In this document: one piece after another, positions 1,129 to 23,696 of the stretch
How positions within the stretch are numbered: the stretch's first letter is position 1
Layout of the letters: each line of letters opens with the position of its first letter
Source of the DNA: an uncultured archaeon
GTDB lineage: Archaea; Iainarchaeota; Iainarchaeia; Iainarchaeales; CSSED10-239
Reading direction: 5' to 3'
DNA: 32,000 bases
Assembly (NCBI GenBank): GCA_964496765.1
Contig: CAZCAP010000006.1
Location: 6,959 to 38,958, forward strand
Made by a program: the position numbers and the translations under genes
The notes under the pieces: generated by a model
Seen by the model: the letters and a program-made list of their open reading frames with translations, nothing else
Told to the model about the DNA's origin: nothing
Database searches by the model: none

Positions 1129-1181
1129 TTGCACTATATTAGACAAACAAAGAATTGCATGCATTTATTTTTTGATATTTA

Positions 1182-4160
1182 TTGATTTCCTCGGACTATT
1201 AGTATTAGTAGACTTAATCTCTCGTCGAAACTAGAAACTTACATCACTAACCTATCAAACCGGTCTTCTTCCGGAGTCCTTGTCTTCTCTTTCGAGAAGA
1301 ATGGCTGTCTCGTTTTAGGGACCGCTTCGTTCTTAGATGCTTTCAGAACTTATCGGCAACAGCGTGGCTACTGGACAGTGCCTTGTCAGACAATCCATAG
1401 ACTAGAGACTGCGACACCTCGTTCCTCTCGTACTAAAGGAATCTTCCCCTCAGACAACCTGCACAACCAAAAGATAGGAACCAAACTGACTCGCATCGTT
1501 CTTAACCCAACTAATGTACGGCTTTAATGAGTGAACACCTCCACCCTTGGCTACTTGTGCACAGCCAGGATGCCGTAAGCCGACAGCGAGGTAGCAAACC
1601 GCGGGGTCGATGTGAACTCTTACCCGCGACAACCCAGTTACCCCCAGGGTAAGTTCACTGTCAGACTAGGCCCCCATAAATAGGGACACTAGCGTTCGCT
1701 AAACCCAAGTTTCCTTCCAACGTTCCGTGCTTTTAGGAACATTGTTAAGCCTGCTTTTGGTTTTGTCCTCTACGACTGATTTCTGACCAGTCTGAGCAGA
1801 CCTTTGGACACCCCTGATATCCTTTCAGGGGTGTACCGCCCCAGTCCAACCACCAAATCAAATGCTGTCCGTCTCCAAGAGACGTAAGATGTATTTTTCC
1901 CACTAGATGGTGTTACATTGGTGTCTATCTACTCCCTAGCGAAAGTAGCTTAAGCGACTCCCATCTACGCTCTATAGCAAGAATAATACAACAACATCAG
2001 ACTGTGGTAAACCTCCGTGGGGTCTTATCCTCCCTTTGGTTGTCCGTGGCGTATTCACCACGAGTGCACGTTCACTAGGTCCAAACCAGGGACAGTGACG
2101 ATCTCGTTACTTCCTTGATGCAAGCCGACATTTAATCGGCAAGGTATTACGCTACCATGAGAGCCTCAGAGTTAGGCCCGCTCTTTACCAGCGCTTAGAT
2201 CAGTTGGAACTGATGTTCACGTACTAGCAGTGAGCAGAAGTCAGTGACTATACACACCGTTTCCGGCTAGCAGTCACCTGTGTTTTTGTTAAACAGTCGG
2301 ACCATCTTTGTAATTAAAACTTACAGTTTACATAACCGTAAGCACCCCTTGTACCGAAGATACAGGGCTAATTTGCCGAATTCCCTTGGTTTGGTTCTCC
2401 TATTACGCCTAAGCCTACTCAGCTAGGGACACCTTTCTCAGTTCTTGGTACGAGCAATAAAACACTGTATAGTTTTCTTTTCATGGGCCCTTGACGACAA
2501 TGAAAGGTTTCCCCCATTCGTACATTAATCTCTTTCTCATTATTACAATTCTCCAGAGATTTGTGGCACTTAGATATGAAGACTTTCATACTCCACCTTG
2601 CCAAAAGCGTTAAAAACTATACTTGCGTTGCCACACGTGCATTATTGGTACAGGAATATGAACCTGTTTCCCTTTCAGATGTTTTCGAGTTACGAAGATC
2701 TTTAGGATCGACTTACCCTTAGCTAAAAATTAGTGCTAAGGAACCCTTGCCCTTTCGGCGGAAATGATTCTCACATTTCTTTGATGTTACTGACACGAGG
2801 ATCCATATCTTTGACAGATCCAGTAGACGTTACCGCCTACCTTCTGCTCTATCAAAGCACCTATCTACCAGATCACAGATTATCTGTGCTCTACGATTTC
2901 GGCAACTAGTTTAGCCCCGTTAATTTTCAGGGCAAAATACCATAGATTGGTGAGCTATTACGCACTCTTTAAAGGATGGCTGCTTCTAAGCCAACCTCCC
3001 AATTGTATTTGGTAAATCACTCCTTTCAAGTTCACACTTAACTAGTATTTAAGGGCCTTAATCGTAGTTCGGGTTTTTTCCCTTTTGGAATAGAGGCTTA
3101 TCCCCCACCCCCTGCTCCGGCCTTCTAAGAAGAATAACAGATTCGGAGTTTGACAAGGAAGGTAAGAATTTCTCCCCAGTACTTCCTAATCAGTATCTCT
3201 ACCCCGTTATCATTCTCCAGCCAGGCTAACCTAAGAGTTATTTTGATAGGAGCCCGCTATCAGCAGGTTAGATAACCTTATCAGTCCTACACTCAAATCA
3301 CACAAACAGTTAGACTGGAACTGCTGCTGGCCTCCACCAACCAGACGGTCGGTTTCACCATGTTCAAGCGTTTATCACCTGCTTTCGGGTCTTGTTCATA
3401 TGACTAAAAGGCACATTAACACCTCTTGCCTGGAAATTTTGCGCAAAATCGGTTTCCCTATGACACAGTGACTTCATCACTTAATCTTGCCACATAAACA
3501 AACTCCCTCGCCCGTGCTTCTTGACGGACAGTATGACATTGATCAAACAGAACACGCTTATGCTGTTACCAACACTCACTTATTGTCTGTCTTCATTCCT
3601 TTCATGCCATACCCGAACTGTTGCTAATTAGTTTCAAGTGCTTTTAACCCCCCGCTAGGGGTACTTTTCAACATTCCTTCGCAGTACTCGTTTACTATCG
3701 GTCTTGTAATATATTTAGAATTAGCAGTAAATGTCTGCTGTATTCCTACGCGATATCCGACGCGCAGTACTCTCGAACAGTAGCAATCATCTATTGTCAC
3801 CTTATTTCTACGGGACCATCACCCTCTATGGTATATCTTTCCAGATAACTTCGATTTGAGTGCACTAGATGTAACTACCTCTTAACACCACATGTCTCAT
3901 ATATTACTATATGAGATTCGGTTTGTTCTTCACTGCTTTCGGTCGACCCTATTTACAGTATCACTATTGTTTTCTTTTCCTCTAGGTACTAAGATGCTTC
4001 AATTCCCTAGGTTACCCTCCAACCTCCTTTATGAGATTGGATAATTCAAGAATCTTGGGATCAAAGGCTGCATGCGCCTACCCCAAGCTTATCGCAGCTT
4101 GCCACGCTCTTACTCGGTTTACAAGCCAAGTTATCCACTAATTAGCTTAATTGAAATCAA
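1182..4160 (-). rRNA. rrl: 23S (LSU) ribosomal RNA; ends approximate (+/- ~20 nt)
   Basis: GC-enriched block in an AT-rich background. It contains the reverse complement of the sarcin-ricin loop (GTTCCTCTCGTACT ~1418-1431) and of the conserved ..CTGAAAGCATCTAAG.. region (~1333-1350). The 5' region resembles ..GGTGGATxxCTTGG.. (~4125-4145). Terminal helix 1: TTGATTTC 1182-1189 pairs with GAAATCAA 4153-4160. Length of ~2.98 kb is normal, so no large insertion. Confidence 0.93.
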
Positions 4161-4205
4161 AGAAAATGCAAGAATTCTTATATTTGACGTATATATAGAA
4201 CATGC

Positions 4206-15931: not shown

Positions 15932-16609
15932 TTAAATTAACATAGATAAGAAAAAGATTAAAAGGCTTACGGGAAGGAGAATTAATAAATAAATGATTGC
16001 TTTTTTCCTATTATCCTCTAAAATGGATAAATATATTGAAGAAATTATAATATATTCAACAATATAGATGATTACACAATAATAGGTAATGGAATATAAA
16101 GAAATACCAACTGTTTCACTAATCTCAGGAACAGATGTTTTTAAGCTCTTAATTAGAGAGATTACAATTCCAAGTATACCAGGAACAATCAAACTACTAG
16201 AGAAGAGAATGGTGTACTTCTGCATAAGAAGATTTGAGTTTCGTTCATCAAGAACCTGCTTGGTTTTAATAAAATTATCAGCAACAGACTTATAGTCAGA
16301 AAAGGAAATGGTTCCACTTGTTGTAGATAAATAGATTAAATCTAGGAATCTATTTAGTATCTCTGAATTATATTTCCTTTTTAAAATATCAAACAACTCT
16401 TTAGGTTTGTGGCCTTTATTTATTTTTAATAGAATATCTGTAAAGTTTCTAGAAATTATTTTATTTCTTGATTTAGAGAGTTTTTCAAGAATTATTTTTA
16501 AATCATTACTCTTGGGAATGGAAGAAAGCTTAAGTATTTCATCAACCAATGCATTTTCTAATTTTCTTCTCTCAAGAGAAAAATAATATTTTTCAAATAA
16601 ATTAAACAT
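15932..16609 (-). CDS. half-size T2SSF-like platform protein (FlaJ/TadC-like)
   Basis: N-terminal ~130-aa helical cytoplasmic domain followed by C-terminal TM helices. The architecture mirrors the upstream gene and it follows the secretion ATPase. Sequence-level assignment is weak. Confidence 0.5.
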   Translation of the reverse strand: MFNLFEKYYFSLERRKLENALVDEILKLSSIPKSNDLKIILEKLSKSRNKIISRNFTDILLKINKGHKPKELFDILKRKYNSEILNRFLDLIYLSTTSGTISFSDYKSVADNFIKTKQVLDERNSNLLMQKYTILFSSSLIVPGILGIVISLIKSLKTSVPEISETVGISLYSITYYCVIIYIVEYIIISSIYLSILEDNRKKAIIYLLILLPVSLLIFFLSMLI

Positions 16610-16627
16610 ATTTATTTATTTCACTTC

Positions 16628-17371
16628 CTATAGAGGATTATTGGATCTTATTACTAATAGCAGCAACATATCAATTAACGGGAAAAGTACGATTGTAATA
16701 AACACAATTGTAATTGGAGAAAAACTAAGTTCGAGAAAATTACTTCCCACCAATAAAAACATTAGAAACATGGATGGAATGATTGCTGAAAAAACAATAA
16801 ACAATAATGTTAATAAATTTAATTTAGTTGAGAATCTCCTAACCATTTGGGTTTGATTTTCAAAAATGGTGTCAGATAATGTTTTTAGAGAATACTCCTT
16901 ATTCCTGACTCCTGAATCCATAATATCTTCAATTTGATAAAAAACTCTTTCAAGTTCAGGATAACTTGAGGACACTGAAAACAAGGCATCCTGTAAATTA
17001 AAACCATGATTTCTAACCAAATACAAAGCTTCTCCAATCAATCTCCCAATCTCACTATTATCACACCTTGATTCAAGCGCAATCTTGAGCGGAATATTCT
17101 TTGAAAGATCAGTTGCTAAATTATTTAAAAAGAAGGGAAGTTCCTGTTGTATTTTTTTTCTTCTGGTTTCTAAAACTATTTTTTTATTAAAAAAAGTTAT
17201 TGAAAAGAAAATTATAAATGAAAGAATAAATATATAAATTAAATTATTAAATGATAATTCAAATAAACTATAATCCACAAGCTTGTATATAAGAAACAAC
17301 GAAAGAAAGAGAACACAATAGAGAATTAAGTTCTTTCTTGAAAAAATCTCTTCAATAATCTTTGGCATCAT
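16628..17371 (-). CDS. half-size T2SSF-like platform protein (FlaJ/TadB-like)
   Basis: Two TMs, a cytoplasmic helical domain (ELPFFLNNLATDLSKNIPLKIALES...), then C-terminal TMs. Its start overlaps the ATPase stop by 4 nt (ATGA coupling). Confidence 0.65.
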   Translation of the reverse strand: MMPKIIEEIFSRKNLILYCVLFLSLFLIYKLVDYSLFELSFNNLIYIFILSFIIFFSITFFNKKIVLETRRKKIQQELPFFLNNLATDLSKNIPLKIALESRCDNSEIGRLIGEALYLVRNHGFNLQDALFSVSSSYPELERVFYQIEDIMDSGVRNKEYSLKTLSDTIFENQTQMVRRFSTKLNLLTLLFIVFSAIIPSMFLMFLLVGSNFLELSFSPITIVFITIVLFPLIDMLLLLVIRSNNPL

Positions 17372-19248
17372 TTACGTTTATCTCCCTTAGCACTCATGGT
17401 TTGAATGAAAAATGAAAGAACATCCTCTGGGGAGGGGGTGGTGGTTTTGGAAGCACACTTGTCCAAGAAATATAGCAAGCTTTTATTTTGTTTTTTAAAT
17501 AGTTTATTTAATTCCAGTTGATTTTTAACTCCAAAAGCAATTCTAAATTTATCAAACAATTTTTTGGAAGTTCCAACCTTTACAAGCTTATCTTTATTTA
17601 TATCAAATTCAAATAATCTATTTAATACAGGCTTATTATTTTCAAAGATAACTTCACAAATCTCAGTTACATTTCTTAGATCTGATACCTTACCTTTATT
17701 ATATTTATTATATCTTCTTTGAACAATAATTAAATCAATAACTCCTAAATCATTCTCAATAACACCATAGGAAACTAATCTTAAAAGTGCTTCCTTTGCA
17801 CTTTGAGAATGGAAAGTGGTATAGGTTCCCTTTGCTTGCCCACAGAGCATAGAATCAATTATCGCTTTTGATTCATCCCTTGATCTCACTTCTCCAATAA
17901 CAACCCTATCGGGTCTCATCCTAAGTGTATTAATAACTAGAGAATCAAGAGTAACTCCCAAATCAGGATTAACAAGAGTAAATATCTTGTGCTCATGGGG
18001 TATGTTTATTTCTCTAACCTCTTCAACCACAACAAACCTTTCATCAGGTGGAATAAAAGAAAGAAGAGCATTAAGAGTTGTGGTCTTCCCAGAACCTGTA
18101 TTCCCAACAACAAACACATTTGAATCAGTTAAAAAAGCCAGAGATAAAAATGAAAGCGCATCAATGGACAACGTGTTTCTTTTAATTAAATCAATAATAG
18201 TAAATGGCTTTTCTGAGAATTTTCTAATTGTAACACACACACTTTCAGTAATTGGTGAAATTATTGCATTCATTCTAGACGCACCAATGGTTGCATCCAA
18301 AAGTGGATTCTTCAAAGTTATATACTTATTGGTTTCCCAGGATAATTTATTAATTAAATCTTTAATTATTTTAGAAGACGTATATACTAAGTTTGTTTCA
18401 AGCCACCCAAAGATTCTATGATACACAAAGACTGGTTTGTTTTCTCCAATTATTGAGATTTCTTCTAGACTATCATCCACAAGTAGGTTTGATAGAGGCC
18501 CATAGTCATAGAGATTACCATAGGCAATCAAAAGAATATAATTGAATTGATCAGATTCCAGTTCTATCTTTTCTCTAAGGCAATAATTAACTAGTGTTTC
18601 TTCAAGTTCGTTTTTTACAATTCCTGGTAGTTTATCAGGAGTATTTATTCTAACCTGTTTTTCATTATCATCTTTAATATCAAACCTATCCCTGTATTCA
18701 TCTATAACAAAATTAATTATTTCAATCTCATCAATTGAGAGAATGGATTCCTCAATAAAATAATATTTTTTATTTGAATCATCTATATATACGTTTTTAG
18801 AAAGGTTTTTTTTATTAAACTCAAATATTCTATAGCCTAGATATTTATTAATTATTTCTAACTCATCACTTTCACTAGTGTCATTAACCAGTTCTAAAAT
18901 ATCTGGATTGTTTTTTAAACAATATCTATTAAATGATTGTTGAGAACATAGATCACACTTATATGCTTTATTCTTTTTAACTACAATTGCATTGTGTGGG
19001 CAAACAGCAATACATTCTAAACATCCAGTACATCTTTCTGGATCAATAGATACAACCCCCTTTGCAGAGAAGTAGATTGCATTTGTTTTGCAGGCACCTA
19101 AACAGGGAGCATCTTCACAATTCTTACAATTAAATACAATTAGAGCATCTCTTACTTTAAATTCATAGGGGCAATTAAGAAATAGGTTTTTATTTTTTCT
19201 CGTAGATAGTACTTTAGCTTTGTCTTCATCTTTAAATTTAATATACAT
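17368..19248 (-). CDS. type II/IV secretion (FlaI/TadA/VirB11-class) ATPase with N-terminal 4Fe-4S ferredoxin-like domain
   Basis: Walker A GNTGSGKTTTLNALL, Asp/Walker B region RPDRVVIGEVRSRDE, His-box TFHSQSA. The N-terminal ~110 aa carry 12 Cys in the patterns CxxCxxxxCxxxC, CxxCxxCxxxCP and CxxCx8C. Confidence 0.85.
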   Translation of the reverse strand: MYIKFKDEDKAKVLSTRKNKNLFLNCPYEFKVRDALIVFNCKNCEDAPCLGACKTNAIYFSAKGVVSIDPERCTGCLECIAVCPHNAIVVKKNKAYKCDLCSQQSFNRYCLKNNPDILELVNDTSESDELEIINKYLGYRIFEFNKKNLSKNVYIDDSNKKYYFIEESILSIDEIEIINFVIDEYRDRFDIKDDNEKQVRINTPDKLPGIVKNELEETLVNYCLREKIELESDQFNYILLIAYGNLYDYGPLSNLLVDDSLEEISIIGENKPVFVYHRIFGWLETNLVYTSSKIIKDLINKLSWETNKYITLKNPLLDATIGASRMNAIISPITESVCVTIRKFSEKPFTIIDLIKRNTLSIDALSFLSLAFLTDSNVFVVGNTGSGKTTTLNALLSFIPPDERFVVVEEVREINIPHEHKIFTLVNPDLGVTLDSLVINTLRMRPDRVVIGEVRSRDESKAIIDSMLCGQAKGTYTTFHSQSAKEALLRLVSYGVIENDLGVIDLIIVQRRYNKYNKGKVSDLRNVTEICEVIFENNKPVLNRLFEFDINKDKLVKVGTSKKLFDKFRIAFGVKNQLELNKLFKKQNKSLLYFLDKCASKTTTPSPEDVLSFFIQTMSAKGDKRK

Positions 19249-19398: not shown

Positions 19399-20136
19399 TT
19401 AATACAGTTCAGAAAAATTAGTTAACATGGTTGTGTTAAGTCTACCCTCAATTCCATTCATCGAATCAGATATACTTATATTAATATCATTAATCTGAGA
19501 ATTAACATTATCAAATTGAGTAGTTACGTTATTGAATTCATTCATGATATTATTATCAATATAATTTTGCACATCATACACTCTTGCATCAACTGAGCTT
19601 ATTCTTTCAGTTAGATTATTATCCAAATCATCTAATCTCTGCACAAGTGCAACGTACTGTTCTCTCTGGGATCTTGAAACTTCAACAATTAAATTAAGTC
19701 CTGTTGAAACGTGGAATGAAGATGAAATTTGCAATACCCTTGGGGTTCCATTTCTAATTACTGTACACTTTACTGCTTCTTCATACACTCCTTCATATTC
19801 AGGAGTAATGAATGAAACATAATAGTTCCCAGGAACTGTGGTTGGACCCATTTCCCTATCCACAAAGAAGAAAGATTTATCAGGGTATAGTAAGGATACA
19901 ATACAATTTGCATCAGTTATTGATATTCCTTTGGCATCCTGTAGCCTAACAATAATCTGACCCTGTTCATTACTTATGTATTCAGTTCCAGATACCATCA
20001 TAAGATCTGATGCTACTCCCCTTCCTTTAAAGTAAAATATAAGAAAGATGCCTATTGCAAGAAGAACAACTATACCTATTACTAGGTATATTCTTTTTCT
20101 ATTTCTACTTTCATGCATATGCTGTCTAAACATCAT
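19399..20136 (-). CDS. N-anchored surface protein, paralog of 21689-22186, with Asn-rich C-terminal region
   Basis: Basic N-terminus plus one TM, then a globular domain alignable with the 165-aa ORF (VSxTEY..IVRLxDxxG..C.V..L.PDKS.FV..PGN.Y..G.YE..V.C..S.SFH), then an N/D/S-rich segment with NxS/T sequons. Confidence 0.6.
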   Translation of the reverse strand: MMFRQHMHESRNRKRIYLVIGIVVLLAIGIFLIFYFKGRGVASDLMMVSGTEYISNEQGQIIVRLQDAKGISITDANCIVSLLYPDKSFFFVDREMGPTTVPGNYYVSFITPEYEGVYEEAVKCTVIRNGTPRVLQISSSFHVSTGLNLIVEVSRSQREQYVALVQRLDDLDNNLTERISSVDARVYDVQNYIDNNIMNEFNNVTTQFDNVNSQINDINISISDSMNGIEGRLNTTMLTNFSELY

Positions 20137-20200: not shown

Positions 20201-20232
20201 AAAAAACCAGGGGATTTCAATTTATCCCCCTG
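20201..20232 (-). terminator. hairpin plus T-run downstream of the repeat-protein gene
   Basis: Stem GGGGAT (20210-20215) / ATCCCC (20224-20229), extendable with one bulge. On the minus strand it is followed by TTTTTT (20201-20206), and it lies ~25 nt after the stop at 20255. Confidence 0.4.
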
Positions 20233-20254: not shown

Positions 20255-21622
20255 TTATGATATTATTCTTACATCAATCTGGCTCTCTTGATTATCTAAA
20301 ATATTGTGAGCTGTAGAATTAATGTCTGTTGTTTGTGCCTTAATAATACCAATGTCTGTTAATAATGTATCAATTCTTGATGACACACTTCCTGAAAGGT
20401 ATTCCCAGGTTGTTGTTGTTGTATTATCTATTTCATCAAGTCTTGCTACCTGTTCATCATGCATTACAACAGCAGCTGCTTTGATACTATATATTTCTTG
20501 ACATAGAGCACTTGAGTCGGTCTCTGGGTTTGAACAAAACTGTTCAAGTAAAGTAATATTTCCATCAATGTTTTCAAATCTTTGGTCAATTGCTGCTCTA
20601 TCTGTATCATTCATAGCATGTGTTGTTAACCATGTGGTATCATCCTTAACACTCTGTACCTGAGTTGATAATTGATCAAGCATAGCGTTTAATTGAAGGT
20701 TAAGATCTCCAGCAACAAGTCCTATAATCATATCTGATAAAGAAGCATTAACATCTGCTAAATCAGATTTAATTTCCTGTCCTGTTATAACAACCTGTCC
20801 ATTAACACTAACTTCTAAACTATCAAGTCTTGCACTTAGGAAATTATTTGAATCTAAGAATTTCTGTGCAATTAAAGCATTTGTGTTATTAAATTGGTTT
20901 GTTATTTGGCTTGATAAACTTACGTTCAATGAATCTAAAATTCCTGTTAGGTTTGTATTAACATTTGCTAAATTTGTGTTTATCTCGTCACCAGTATCTT
21001 GAACCTTAGCATTCAAACTTACATTCACATTTTCAAGTTGAGCAGAAAGCTCAGCAAACTTGGTTGTCATTTGTGTTGCAAGGTTTGTGTTTACTGTGTT
21101 CAATAGATTTGTTAAAGATGTATCAACATTTGTTAAGTGAGCATTTATTGAATCACCTGTTGCTTCCATCTTACCATCTAAACTTAAGTTAATGTCCTGT
21201 AAATTATTTCCAAGAGTCTCAAATTCAGAACCCATTTGGTTTGAAAGGTTTGTATTTACTGTGTTTAGGATACTTGTCATTGATGCATTTACATCACTTA
21301 GGTTTGTGGTTATTATTTGTCCAGTTTCAGCAACCTTAGCCATGATTGTTAAGTTAACATCATTTAGTTGTGCTGTTGATGCATTAAATTCGCTTAACAT
21401 CTGACCAGATAAGCTAGTATTAACAGAATTTAATAAACTTGTTAATGATGTATTAGATGTGCTTATACTTGTTTGTAATTCCTGTCCTGTGGTTACAACA
21501 GTTCCAGTAATACTTACATTAACAGCATCTAGTTGAGTTCCAAGTGTATTAATTCCTTCATTTAATTGGTTTGTTACACCTGCATTAACATCTGTTATTA
21601 AATCATTTAAGTTTGTATTCAT
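20255..21622 (-). CDS. Asn/Thr/Ser-rich tandem-repeat surface protein, C-terminal portion of an interrupted gene
   Basis: 455-aa ORF made of ~55-aa repeats (xLxxVNxSLxxxxxxTGxxIxTNLxxVNxxLTxxLNxVNTxLxxQMxxxF). No signal/TM and no SD before its Met. The reading frame continues upstream in phase to the TAA at 21689-21691. Confidence 0.6.
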   Translation of the reverse strand: MNTNLNDLITDVNAGVTNQLNEGINTLGTQLDAVNVSITGTVVTTGQELQTSISTSNTSLTSLLNSVNTSLSGQMLSEFNASTAQLNDVNLTIMAKVAETGQIITTNLSDVNASMTSILNTVNTNLSNQMGSEFETLGNNLQDINLSLDGKMEATGDSINAHLTNVDTSLTNLLNTVNTNLATQMTTKFAELSAQLENVNVSLNAKVQDTGDEINTNLANVNTNLTGILDSLNVSLSSQITNQFNNTNALIAQKFLDSNNFLSARLDSLEVSVNGQVVITGQEIKSDLADVNASLSDMIIGLVAGDLNLQLNAMLDQLSTQVQSVKDDTTWLTTHAMNDTDRAAIDQRFENIDGNITLLEQFCSNPETDSSALCQEIYSIKAAAVVMHDEQVARLDEIDNTTTTTWEYLSGSVSSRIDTLLTDIGIIKAQTTDINSTAHNILDNQESQIDVRIIS

Positions 21623-21700
21623 ATTTGAGATATTAGTTGTTAATATTTCGTTTGTGTCTGCAATCTGTGCACTTAAAGAAACATTTACTTATCCAAGGTT
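20666..21700 (-). repeat. ~165-bp (55-aa) coding tandem repeat, about six diverged units
   Basis: Units start at protein positions 30, 85, 140, 195 and 265 of the 455-aa ORF. One further unit spans the in-frame stop and begins at NLG* in the upstream ORF. Confidence 0.7.
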
Positions 21701-22186
21701 TGCATCAAGTGCATCTACCTTTTCAGTAACTATTCTTACCTGCTCAAGAGCTGGGTTTAAGTGGAATGATTGAGATGTTTTAATTGTTTGTGTTCCCTTA
21801 AGACAGGTTACTTCCTGTTCATAGGTTCCAAGCGGAGCACCAGCAAGTGAATCTGTTCTATACCAGTTTCCTGGGATATTTGATAAAGCTAGTGGCTGAT
21901 CATCAACAAATGTACTCTTATCCGGTTTTAGGATAGTTACGTTACATGAGTCAACTGCATAGGGGTCTCCTCTAAAATCAGCAAGTCTTACTATTGTTGA
22001 GGCAACGTCATCTCTCCAATATTCAGTGTGGGATACCCAACTGACTACTGGTTCATTAACTGTTTGCTTACCATCAGTGTATGCAAATGCAAAGAATGCA
22101 ATTACAACTATCACAATGGTTGAAACAATACCCCATCTAATAAGCTTTTTTTTCTTATTTGTATATTTTGGATTTAAATCTTCCAT
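21689..22186 (-). CDS. N-anchored surface protein, N-terminal portion of an interrupted gene
   Basis: GGTGA (22191-22195, minus strand) lies 4 nt upstream of the ATG. It has a basic N-terminus, one TM and a globular domain paralogous to 19399-20136. It ends at a TAA inside a repeat unit. Confidence 0.65.
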   Translation of the reverse strand: MEDLNPKYTNKKKKLIRWGIVSTIVIVVIAFFAFAYTDGKQTVNEPVVSWVSHTEYWRDDVASTIVRLADFRGDPYAVDSCNVTILKPDKSTFVDDQPLALSNIPGNWYRTDSLAGAPLGTYEQEVTCLKGTQTIKTSQSFHLNPALEQVRIVTEKVDALDANLG

Positions 22187-22459
22187 ATCTTCACCTTATT
22201 TCACAATTTTTTTTTAAAAATATAACTACTATTCTGATGCCCTAAATCAATAGACTTTAGGCTAATAGCTTACTATATGTTGGCTATAATGATTATAAAC
22301 CTATTTGTTTAGAAAATTAAAGAAAATCAATGATTTTGGTAAGATTATTAACCATTAACTGTGAACAATTACCTTCAAAACACACTTGTTTACTAGGATA
22401 ATAAGCTTATTTTAACCCAACTAAGTTAAGTAGGTAATTTTGATTGGATTTCATATGAA

Positions 22460-23084: not shown

Positions 23085-23696
23085 TTATTTTCCTTTCTTT
23101 TCCTTTAAATACAAATTATAAATTATTCCTACAGAGACTAAACAAAATACTTCTACAATTACAAAAGTTAATGAAAAACCAATTATTGATGCAAGAACTG
23201 CACCCACTAGCCCAGCAATTCCTATTCCGAAACTAACAAATGTTGAATAAACAGACCACTGAAAGCCCTCTCTTCTCTTATCAAGATTTCTTGTCCAAAT
23301 ACTTGTCCAAACAGGATATTCAATTCCTGAACCTATTCCAAAAATAAATTCAGCTAGATATATCCAATAAATATTATTTGCAAAAATATAAATTAATGGA
23401 GCAATTGAAATTATCATGGTTCCAATAAGTAACCATTTCATTTTTTTCTTTTGCTTATCAACAAACCTAGAAAAAGGAAGTTGAATAATACACTTAGTTA
23501 TAAGAAATATTGCACTTGCAATTCCTGCTGAAAGAATGCTTCCCCCAACAAGATTATCCTTTAGAAAAATAGCAAAGATTGGGGCAACCAACCCAAACCC
23601 AGTACCAACAATCAGATCAATAAAAAGTAAATGCCATAAAGTTTTATTAAGTATTCTATTAAACTTTAGGTCATTAAGTAATTTCATATAATCCAA
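23085..23696 (-). CDS. MFS-like 6-TM (half-size) membrane protein
   Basis: 203 aa with ~6 hydrophobic helices. A motif-A-like loop, LPFSRFVDKQKKK, lies between TM2 and TM3. Confidence 0.55.
   Translation of the reverse strand: MDYMKLLNDLKFNRILNKTLWHLLFIDLIVGTGFGLVAPIFAIFLKDNLVGGSILSAGIASAIFLITKCIIQLPFSRFVDKQKKKMKWLLIGTMIISIAPLIYIFANNIYWIYLAEFIFGIGSGIEYPVWTSIWTRNLDKRREGFQWSVYSTFVSFGIGIAGLVGAVLASIIGFSLTFVIVEVFCLVSVGIIYNLYLKEKKGK

What the first reader, a model, noticed from the sequence alone, without database searches (positions are those of the whole stretch)
21623..21691. Single in-frame TAA splits one ~640-aa surface-protein gene into two apparent ORFs
The 165-aa ORF stops at TAA (21689-21691). 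Reading on in the same frame gives VNVSLSAQIADTNEILTTNISN and then the Met that starts the 455-aa ORF at 21622, with no frameshift. The stop falls inside a repeat unit, at the position occupied by N/A/D in QLENVNVSL, QLDAVNVSI, QLNDVNLTI and NLQDINLSL. The downstream ORF has no SD motif, signal peptide or TM. The paralog 19399-20136 has the same domain order in one uninterrupted ORF. This is therefore either a recent nonsense mutation (pseudogene or on/off variant), population heterogeneity or a consensus error in a repeat, or stop-codon readthrough.
Basis: seen in the sequence. Interest (0 to 1): 0.7.

Follow-up and report, generated by a model that had tools for sequence, protein, structure and literature searches.

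The report
Nonsense mutation splits archaeal surface-fibre gene
A single C-to-T change (CAA to TAA) has cut a 643-codon surface-protein gene of an uncultured small-genome archaeon into two apparent genes; it is an ordinary, recent truncating mutation, though the same gene is independently broken in about one in ten related lineages.

Summary
The 165-aa ORF (22186-21689, minus strand) ends at TAA 21691-21689. The same frame continues for 22 codons into the 455-aa ORF (21622-20255). The organism is an archaeon with about 30% GC, and its homologues come from DPANN-type MAGs. TAA ends 22 of the window's 26 ORFs, so the codon is not reassigned.

Syntenic orthologues at 45-94% identity encode one uninterrupted protein of 621-643 aa. 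The nearest relatives have CAA (Gln) at the site, so TAA is one transition away.

The TAA allele is 100% identical in 11 contigs, from at least four sequencing runs and three assembly pipelines. No intact allele was found, so an assembly error is excluded. The downstream part shows no decay (omega about 0.1, no second lesion). It has no start signal, SD or TM of its own, and no RNA structure follows the stop.

Best reading: a recent nonsense mutation, fixed in the assembled consensus. It leaves a membrane-anchored Ig-like stub and silences the fibrous stalk and head.

One unexpected result: 5 of 47 lineages with a complete gene each carry a different single lesion in it (TAA, TGA, TAA, TAG, 1-nt deletion). 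The enrichment over flanking genes is 2- to 6-fold and not robust. Programmed readthrough is not supported.

The parts
20255..22186 (-). Ancestral single gene (643 codons plus stop) for a membrane-anchored fibrous surface protein, now interrupted.
   Evidence: Orthologues of 621-643 aa align over 95-100% of the conceptual read-through product. Synteny is the same in L013, L014 and L019: methyltransferase, this gene, paralogue, T2SSE ATPase, two membrane proteins, VTT, LeuRS.
21689..22186 (-). 165-aa ORF. This is the N-terminal fragment that is still translatable: a TM or pilin-like helix, an Ig-like sandwich, and the first helix of the stalk.
   Evidence: An SD-like AAGGTGAAGAT lies before the ATG. 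The hydrophobic segment is at residues 15-33. The AF2 model has pLDDT 93.6, with helix 6-43, a sandwich of seven strands at 47-143, and helix 145-164. The best Foldseek PDB matches are filamin and the Ig-like domains of the Sap and SbsC S-layer proteins.
21689..21691 (-). Premature TAA (codon 166), derived from CAA (Gln) by one C>T transition at window base 21691.
   Evidence: The codon is CAA in L014, L018 and L019, and GCA in L013. The residue is Gln in P0002-4 and P0074-79, Ala in P0001, and Asp or Asn in more distant orthologues.
21623..21688 (-). 22 in-frame codons between the stop and the first ATG. They are homologous to orthologue residues 167-188 and belong to no ORF call.
   Evidence: Translation and alignment. 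The Met at 21622 is an ordinary internal residue of the family (NMNTNLN) that varies to I or L in P0007-9. It is not a conserved start.
20255..21622 (-). 455-aa ORF. This is the C-terminal fragment: most of the repeat stalk and the conserved C-terminal head with a Cys pair. It probably no longer makes a surface protein.
   Evidence: It has no SD and no TM. Omega against orthologues is about 0.12. The window branch has 63 syn / 22 nonsyn changes with L013 as sister and 46 / 15 with L041 as sister. The conserved end ...RIIS-TAA is shared with all orthologues.
20879..21703 (-). Five 55-residue repeats (residues 162-436). The stop lies at position 5 of the first repeat.
   Evidence: The motif [VI]N[VL][ST][LI] occurs at residues 167, 222, 277, 332 and 387, a spacing of exactly 55. 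There is no DNA-level tandem repeat. In the AF2 model of orthologue P0002, each unit is a beta-hairpin plus a helix of about 24 residues, at only pLDDT 55-77.
22191..22195 (-). SD-like GGTGA, 4 nt upstream of the ATG of the 165-aa ORF.
   Evidence: Upstream string TAAAAAAAAATTGTGAAATAAGGTGAAGAT. Similar GGTGA or GGAGA motifs precede several other genes of the window.
20209..20230 (-). Terminator-like GC hairpin with a T-run after the end of the gene. It is the only one in the region, and none lies between the two ORFs.
   Evidence: The same hairpin sequence follows the orthologue in L018.
19399..20136 (-). Paralogue (245 aa) with a TM helix, the same Ig-like module and a short repeat region, uninterrupted.
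   Evidence: BLASTP E 3e-18. The N-module HMM hits the ORF directly downstream of the target gene in nearly all related loci.
15932..19248 (-). Adjacent type-IV-filament-like machinery: a FlaI/T2SSE-type ATPase with an N-terminal 4Fe-4S domain (17368-19248) and two FlaJ/T2SSF-like membrane proteins (16628-17371, 15932-16609).
   Evidence: Pfam T2SSE at 110 bits plus Fer4 families. NCBIfam gives FlaI at 187 bits (below its cut-off of 550) and ArlJ/FlaJ at E 4.8e-7. There is a weak T2SSF hit.

Best explanation
A point mutation, CAA (Gln166) to TAA, arose recently in this lineage of an uncultured DPANN-type archaeon. In every available assembly of this population it is the only allele.

The gene normally encodes one protein of about 643 aa with four parts:
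- an N-terminal hydrophobic helix,
- an extracellular Ig-like domain,
- a stalk of five 55-residue repeats,
- a conserved C-terminal head.

The gene sits directly upstream of a paralogue and a FlaI/FlaJ-like type-IV-filament machine.

Translation now stops after residue 165. The product is a membrane-anchored Ig-like stub. The 477 downstream codons lack a ribosome-binding site, a conserved start and any export or anchor signal, so they are probably not made into a surface protein.

Shown here: the gene is ancestrally single, the mutation is a single transition, it is reproducible, and TAA is the normal terminator. Inferred: the mutation is recent, the stalk and head are functionally lost, and the stub is stable.
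For: - **Normal terminator.** TAA ends 22 of 26 ORFs in the window, including this gene's own conserved ...RIIS end.
- **Single ancestral gene.** Nine orthologues (P0001-P0009) plus six cluster members of 643 aa (P0074-P0079) are uninterrupted and syntenic. P0078 is an exception in its DNA: it carries an in-frame TGA at Trp108 in L018/L041, which the gene caller read as Trp.
- **Single transition.** The site is CAA in L014, L018 and L019.
- **Reproducible.** The TAA allele is identical in 11 contigs from ENA, JGI and Logan assemblies of several runs. Contigs found through the flanking genes all show the 165 + 455 split wherever they span the site.
- **No downstream decay.** There is no second lesion. 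Omega is about 0.09-0.12 on the window branch.
- **No independent expression signals.** There is no SD, TM or conserved start for the downstream part.
- **No repeat-driven assembly error.** There is no DNA tandem repeat that could cause mis-assembly.
- **Similar simple lesions elsewhere.** Other lineages carry TGG>TGA, a second TAA, a TAG and a 1-nt deletion. This shows the gene is often hit by ordinary inactivating mutations.
Against: - The downstream 1.4 kb is perfectly intact and strongly constrained. This fits a very recent mutation, but it fits continued translation equally well.
- Read-level allele frequencies were not available, so a minority intact allele cannot be excluded.
- Logan contig L010 ends exactly at the base before the mutated T. 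That is what a C/T bubble would produce. However, the exact-product look-up selects for such an end.
- No expression data are available.
Confidence: 0.8

Rival explanations
1. Recurrent, selected truncation or loss. The surface fibre is repeatedly knocked out or shortened because losing the stalk and head is advantageous under some conditions, for example escape from a virus that uses it as a receptor or a change of host. The TAA would then be one adaptive loss-of-function allele that swept this population. This refines the best explanation rather than replacing it.
For: - Five of 47 lineages with a complete gene carry one lesion each, all different: the window, L018/L041, L026/L056/L074, L068/L069 and L071.
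- Four of the five lesions are seen in two or more independent assemblies.
- In a strict screen there are 5 events in 25,456 target codons against 2 in 61,717 codons of conserved flanking genes. My binomial calculation from these counts gives p of about 0.03.
- Three of the five lesions fall within about 45 residues after the Ig-like module, which would spare that module.
- In this population the TAA allele is the only one assembled.
Against: - A looser screen finds 6-7 further lesions in flanking genes: L020, L021, L046, L057, L060/61 and L082/L039. The enrichment then drops to about 2-fold and is not significant.
- Detection power is highest for the target gene by design.
- The clustering of lesion positions is a post hoc observation on five events.
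- No virus or host data are available.
Confidence: 0.2
2. Stop-codon readthrough. A fraction of ribosomes decode the TAA, for example with near-cognate tRNA-Gln, so that both a short anchored form and the full-length fibre are made.
For: - The downstream frame is intact and under purifying selection on the window branch.
- Near-cognate decoding of UAA would restore the ancestral Gln (inference).
- In-frame stops also occur in this gene in three other lineages.
Against: - The stop is not conserved. Apart from the window, none of the lineages aligned at this codon has a stop there.
- The other lineages use all three stop codons, at different positions and in unrelated contexts: GGA-TAA-GTA, AAC-TGA-TAT, TTA-TAA-ATA and AAT-TAG-AGT. 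One lineage has a frameshift instead.
- TAA is the main terminator here, and TAA-G ends four other genes of the window.
- There is no unusual RNA structure after the stop (z = -0.66).
- No programmed UAA readthrough in archaea is known to me (own knowledge), and a literature search did not turn one up.
Confidence: 0.05
3. A genuine two-gene arrangement. After the split, the C-terminal 455-aa part is translated on its own by re-initiation at ATG 21622 and still functions, for example by associating with the anchored stub.
For: - The ATG lies 22 codons after the stop, on the same transcript. There is no terminator between the ORFs.
- The downstream part is intact.
Against: - There is no SD-like motif.
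- The Met is an ordinary variable internal residue.
- The product would have no signal peptide or TM segment.
- No lineage shows a conserved two-gene layout. Every split lies at a different place.
Confidence: 0.04
4. Sequencing, assembly or consensus artefact in a repetitive region.
For: - The stop lies in a protein repeat.
- Several short contigs break inside the gene.
Against: - The codon and flanks are identical in 11 contigs from MEGAHIT (ENA), JGI and Logan assemblies of at least four different runs.
- The repeats are too diverged at the DNA level to be detected by TRF.
- The contig breaks in sample ERZ27248920 leave a gap rather than a branch, which suggests low coverage (my inference from coordinates).
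Confidence: 0.02

Closest known systems
Ordinary nonsense-mutation pseudogene or truncated allele in a prokaryotic genome
   Same: One transition converts a sense codon (CAA) into the organism's normal terminator. Orthologues are intact and syntenic. The downstream remainder has no translation signals of its own.
   Different: There is no secondary decay at all: omega is about 0.1 and there is no further lesion in 477 codons. The mutation is therefore very young, or the remainder is still used. The retained stub is a complete, confidently folded module rather than a random fragment.
Phase-variable (contingency) surface adhesins and pilus proteins of bacteria, e.g. Neisseria Opa/PilC-type on/off switching
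   Same: It is a surface-exposed protein beside a type-IV-filament machine. Independent on/off-like lesions occur in several lineages.
   Different: There is no simple-sequence repeat, homopolymer or invertible element at the site. The lesions are point substitutions and one deletion outside a long run, so no fast reversible switch exists. Coexisting on and off alleles were not observed.
Programmed stop-codon readthrough, e.g. phage Q-beta A1 (UGA), retroviral gag-pol (UAG), archaeal Pyl (UAG) and Sec (UGA) recoding
   Same: There is an in-frame stop with an intact, conserved coding frame behind it.
   Different: The stop is absent from all orthologues, the codon is UAA, the context is ordinary, and there is no downstream structure or recoding element.
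Archaeal type IV pilin / archaellin-like and S-layer Ig-like surface modules
   Same: There is an N-terminal long hydrophobic helix followed by an Ig-like beta-sandwich. The genes lie next to FlaI- and FlaJ-like genes. Foldseek matches Sap and SbsC S-layer Ig-like domains and filamin.
   Different: No canonical class III (prepilin) signal motif is evident. There is a long C-terminal repeat stalk and head. There are no Pfam or NCBIfam family hits above cut-off. The family is small: 217 cluster representatives among 1.84 billion.

Membership tests
Recent nonsense-mutation pseudogene / truncated allele | Orthologues encode one uninterrupted protein spanning both fragments, in conserved synteny. 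| tested here: met
   P0001-P0009 are 621-643 aa and cover 95-100% of the query. Synteny holds in L013, L014 and L019.
Recent nonsense-mutation pseudogene / truncated allele | The stop is one substitution from the sense codon of the nearest relatives. | tested here: met
   The codon is CAA in L014, L018 and L019, against TAA in the window.
Recent nonsense-mutation pseudogene / truncated allele | The stop codon is a functional terminator in this organism. | tested here: met
   22 of 26 ORFs end in TAA. This gene's conserved RIIS end also uses TAA.
Recent nonsense-mutation pseudogene / truncated allele | Signs of relaxed selection or further lesions downstream, as expected for an old pseudogene. 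| tested here: not met
   The window branch has 46 syn / 15 nonsyn (L041 as sister) and 63 / 22 (L013 as sister), with no second stop or frameshift. The lesion must be recent relative to about 5% nucleotide divergence.
Programmed stop-codon readthrough | The stop codon is conserved at the same site in orthologues. | tested here: not met
   All aligned orthologues have Gln, Ala, Asp or Asn at the site. The other disrupted lineages have lesions elsewhere.
Programmed stop-codon readthrough | A leaky stop context or a stimulatory downstream RNA structure. | tested here: not met
   TAA-G also ends four other genes of the window. The fold of the 151 nt around the stop has z = -0.66.
Programmed stop-codon readthrough | A readthrough product is detectable. 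| not testable with these tools
   No proteomic or ribosome-profiling data are available.
Stop-codon reassignment (alternative genetic code) | The codon appears at conserved sense positions in many genes and is not used as a terminator. | tested here: not met
   TAA terminates 22 of 26 ORFs, and TAG and TGA terminate two each. No other window gene needed an in-frame TAA to match its Pfam family.
Phase-variable contingency locus | A hypermutable tract or invertible element at the switch site. | tested here: not met
   The sequence around the site is GGA TAA GTA AAT. There is no repeat tract and no tandem repeat.
Phase-variable contingency locus | On and off alleles coexist within a population. 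| tested here: inconclusive
   Only the TAA allele is assembled. Exact look-ups of six possible intact alleles found nothing. L010 ends at the base before the variant. Reads were not available.
Type IV filament (archaeal pilus/archaellum-like) locus | A FlaI/PilB-type secretion ATPase and a FlaJ/TadC-type polytopic membrane partner lie adjacent. | tested here: met
   Pfam T2SSE scores 110 bits against a cut-off of 24.9. NCBIfam FlaI scores 187 bits, below the equivalog cut-off of 550, and ArlJ/FlaJ has E 4.8e-7. The system is therefore of that superfamily but is not an archaellum equivalog.
Type IV filament (archaeal pilus/archaellum-like) locus | The substrate protein carries a class III (prepilin) signal peptide. 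| tested here: inconclusive
   The N-terminus KKKKLIRWG-IVSTIVIVVIAFFAFAY has a charged stretch, a Gly and a hydrophobic helix. The -2 position is Trp, and the motif is not conserved among orthologues. No dedicated predictor was available.

The most novel reading that the evidence does not exclude
The gene may be a hotspot of adaptive truncation. In about 10% of lineages of these small-genome archaea, independent single lesions remove the stalk and head of a filament-associated surface fibre. Most of them keep the anchored Ig-like module. The truncated allele can become the only one detected in a natural population. This would point to strong, fluctuating selection on the protein these presumed symbionts expose to the outside, for example from a virus receptor role or from host recognition. 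A weaker variant of this reading is that low-level readthrough yields short and long isoforms.
Probability: 0.15. Interest if true: 0.55.

Novelty: new member of a known kind. Interest (0 to 1): 0.27.

Why it matters
For annotation, the two ORFs should be merged and flagged as one disrupted gene. They should not be reported as two hypothetical proteins.

Biologically, the case gives a dated example of a truncating allele that is the only one assembled in an environmental archaeal population. It affects a conserved but uncharacterised surface-fibre family next to a FlaI/FlaJ-like machine.

If the recurrent independent lesions prove to be enriched, the family becomes a candidate for the cell-surface determinant under selection in these organisms, acting in host or virus interaction. 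Otherwise it is an ordinary young pseudogene.

Tried and rejected
- **Metagenome DNA pattern scan.** A scan across the stop with NNN at the codon found nothing. That collection evidently does not hold these contigs.
- **Exact look-ups of intact alleles.** Six conceptual intact alleles (Q, K, E, Y, S or L at residue 166) were not in the collection. This is a weak negative, because the 455-aa product is also missing there.
- **afdb50 fold search.** The library was unavailable.
- **Literature.** Searches for the sample accessions found nothing, and no description of this family turned up.
- **TRF on the gene.** No DNA repeats were found.
- **Global TAA recoding.** Rejected from stop usage.
- **Short homologues as natural stub-only forms.** P0081 (188 aa) is cut by a contig end. 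P0080 (262 aa) is a complete short relative in another context. They give no clear precedent.
- **ATPase-halves control.** Too few loci had enough flank; 7 of 7 were intact.
- **Full-length AF2 model of P0002.** Confidence is low (pLDDT 66.8), so it was not used for fold searches.

Full report
**Context.** The window carries an archaeal 23S rRNA (1179-4163, minus strand) and is about 30% GC outside it. Homologues of the gene in question come from MAGs labelled Woesearchaeota, Pacearchaeota, Nanoarchaeia, Aenigmarchaeota, Iainarchaeum and Candidatus Forterrea. The organism is therefore a DPANN-type archaeon. The window is 100% identical to ENA contig ERZ27248937:k141_425481 and to further contigs from JGI and Logan assemblies.

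**The observation.**
- On the minus strand, a 165-aa ORF (22186-21689) ends at TAA. The same frame continues VNVSLSAQIADTNEILTTNISN and then reaches the ATG (21622) of a 455-aa ORF that ends at 20255.
- At this composition, a chance open frame of 477 codons has probability about 1e-17. The other sense frames hold 76 and 80 stops.
- The region holds five exact 55-residue repeats. The stop is at position 5 of the first repeat, where the others have A, D, D and N.
- The upstream ORF has an SD-like AAGGTGAAGAT and a hydrophobic helix at residues 15-33. The downstream ORF has neither.

**Is TAA a stop here?** Yes. Of 26 plausible ORFs in the window, 22 end in TAA, 2 in TAG and 2 in TGA. Four true gene ends are TAA-G, like the site in question. 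The gene's own C-terminus...RIIS, is conserved in all orthologues and is followed by TAA. Codon reassignment is excluded.

**One gene or two?**
- A search with the conceptual read-through product returned 72 homologues. The nine closest (45-89% identity) are single proteins of 621-643 aa covering 95-100% of the query.
- The 90% cluster that contains the window's 165-aa product otherwise holds seven proteins of 643 aa.
- The loci of P0001, P0002 and P0079 are syntenic with the window: methyltransferase, this gene, a paralogue of about 260 aa, T2SSE ATPase, proteins of 247 and about 222 aa, a VTT protein and LeuRS.
- The ancestral state is therefore one gene.

**The mutation.** At the site, L014, L018 and L019 have CAA (Gln) and L013 has GCA. 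All six further cluster members (P0074-P0079) have Gln. TAA is thus a single C>T transition from CAA.

**Artefact?**
- The TAA and its flanks are identical in 11 contigs: L001-L009, L011 and L012. They come from three ENA assemblies, three JGI assemblies and Logan assemblies of SRR8437217, SRR8437247 and SRR8437218.
- Matching contig ends suggest that some of these are the same samples assembled by different pipelines. Even so, at least four runs are involved.
- Contigs retrieved through the exact sequences of the two flanking genes all show the 165 + 455 split wherever they span the site. None has an intact gene.
- The protein repeats are not detectable as DNA repeats, so repeat-driven mis-assembly is unlikely.
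- Six conceptual intact alleles were not found by exact look-up. This is a weak negative.
- One caveat remains. Logan contig L010 ends exactly one base before the mutated T, as a C/T bubble would cause. However, the look-up by exact product selects for such an end. Only read mapping can settle minor-allele frequency.

**Age and fate of the downstream part.**
- Pairwise omega is 0.09-0.14 for both parts of the gene.
- With L013 as sister and L014 as outgroup, the window branch has 63 synonymous and 22 non-synonymous changes downstream of the stop. The intact sister branch has 59 and 45.
- With the closer L041 as sister, the counts are 46 / 15 against 50 / 9.
- There is no second stop or frameshift.
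- The stop therefore arose late on a branch of about 5% nucleotide divergence, or the downstream part is still under selection.
- Nothing suggests independent expression. There is no SD. The Met at 21622 is an ordinary internal residue that varies to I or L in orthologues. There is no TM or signal segment.
- No unusual RNA fold follows the stop (z = -0.66). The only terminator-like hairpin lies after the whole gene (20230-20209).

**What the protein is.**
- The AF2 model of the 165-aa product is confident (pLDDT 93.6). It has a long helix at 6-43, a seven-stranded sandwich at 47-143 and a helix at 145-164.
- The best Foldseek PDB matches are filamin and the Ig-like domains of the Sap and SbsC S-layer proteins.
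- A full-length orthologue model is weak (pLDDT 66.8). It suggests that each 55-residue unit is a beta-hairpin plus a helix, followed by a helical C-terminal head. The head contains the invariant Cys pair.
- N-X-S/T sequons number 21, against 13.9 ± 3.0 in shuffles, and 20 of them lie downstream of the stop.
- Pfam gives only sub-threshold Apolipoprotein and Baculo_PEP_C matches. NCBIfam and PDB sequence searches give nothing.
- The N-module family is small: 217 representatives at E<=1e-3 among 1.84 billion, nearly always at the N-terminus.
- The neighbours are a FlaI/T2SSE-type ATPase with an N-terminal 4Fe-4S domain and FlaJ/T2SSF-like membrane proteins.
- The protein is therefore most likely an anchored or pilin-like fibrous surface protein belonging to a type-IV-filament-like system (inference).
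- The truncated product keeps the anchor and the Ig-like module and loses the stalk and head.

**An unexpected finding: other lineages are broken too.** I surveyed 84 related loci, which form 50 lineages at 97% nucleotide identity. Of these, 47 have a complete gene. Five lineages carry one lesion each, and all five differ:
- **The window.** TAA at codon 166.
- **L018/L041.** TGG>TGA at the invariant Trp108. These are the closest relatives (94% aa identity), from two datasets that differ by 3 nt.
- **L026/L056/L074.** TAA about 45 residues after the Ig-like module, where relatives have CAA, GAA or GGA.
- **L071.** TAG four codons upstream of the window's site, where relatives have GAA, AAT or GAT.
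- **L068/L069.** A 1-nt deletion.

The lesions use three different stop codons in unrelated contexts, plus a frameshift. This argues for ordinary mutations and against a recoding mechanism.

Is the gene hit more often than its neighbours? A strict screen considered only ORFs conserved in two or more other lineages. It gives 5 events in 25,456 target codons against 2 in 61,717 flanking codons. My binomial calculation from these counts gives p of about 0.03. A looser screen adds lesions in L020, L021, L046, L057 and L082/L039. The enrichment then falls to about 2-fold. Detection power also favours the target gene. I regard the enrichment as suggestive only.

**Conclusion.** The finding is real and is best explained as a young nonsense mutation in a single surface-fibre gene, present as the only assembled allele in this population (confidence about 0.8). 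Adaptive, recurrent truncation is a plausible refinement (about 0.2). Readthrough (0.05), an independently translated C-terminal gene (0.04) and artefact (0.02) are poorly supported. This is a new instance of a well-known kind of event, and interest is modest.

Noticed in passing
L018:645-2576 and L041:4001-5932: The closest relative of the window's gene (94% aa identity) carries its own in-frame TGA at the invariant Trp108 (TGG>TGA). It is seen in a Logan and a JGI assembly that differ by 3 nt. The gene caller behind P0078 translated the codon as Trp.
   Followed up: yes
L026:265-2175, L056:3965-5875, L074:3947-4735, L071:3938-5164, L068:3887-5517, L069:1450-3080: Three further lineages have single, different lesions in the orthologous gene: TAA, TAG and a 1-nt deletion. 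Overall 5 of 47 lineages are disrupted. The enrichment over flanking genes is 2- to 6-fold depending on criteria.
   Followed up: yes
window 23085-23696 (-): This 203-aa ORF matches only positions 2-170 of the 347-position Pfam MFS_1 model, so it is a half-size MFS transporter. It is wedged between the MscS-like channel gene and the methyltransferase gene and is absent from the syntenic loci L013, L014 and L019. It may be a truncated remnant.
   Followed up: partly
window 17368-19248 (-): The FlaI/T2SSE-type ATPase carries an N-terminal 4Fe-4S dicluster (ferredoxin-like) domain. The orthologue in L014 shows no Fer4 hits, so this fusion is variable among relatives.
   Followed up: no
window 15932-17371 (-): The FlaJ/T2SSF-like membrane component is encoded as two adjacent ORFs (247 and 225 aa). 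This layout is conserved in L014 and L019, so it is a stable arrangement rather than a lesion.
   Followed up: partly
L060:4868-5549 (-) and L061:6127-6796 (-): The orthologue of the neighbouring methyltransferase gene is frameshifted in one lineage. Disrupted genes are therefore not confined to the surface-protein gene.
   Followed up: partly
L035, L079, L081 (e.g. L081:3584-6887): Some Woesearchaeota-type loci carry two full copies of the surface-protein gene flanking the short paralogue, which indicates local duplication of the family.
   Followed up: no
L026:937-1613 vs L056: In that lineage the gene contains a 333-nt internal duplication (91-94% identical copies). All 9 differences between two otherwise identical 5.8-kb loci lie inside the gene, which suggests repeat-mediated recombination or assembly differences.
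   Followed up: partly
window 1179-4163 (-): An archaeal 23S rRNA gene stands alone, with no 16S or 5S gene within the window. The rRNA genes may therefore be unlinked.
   Followed up: no
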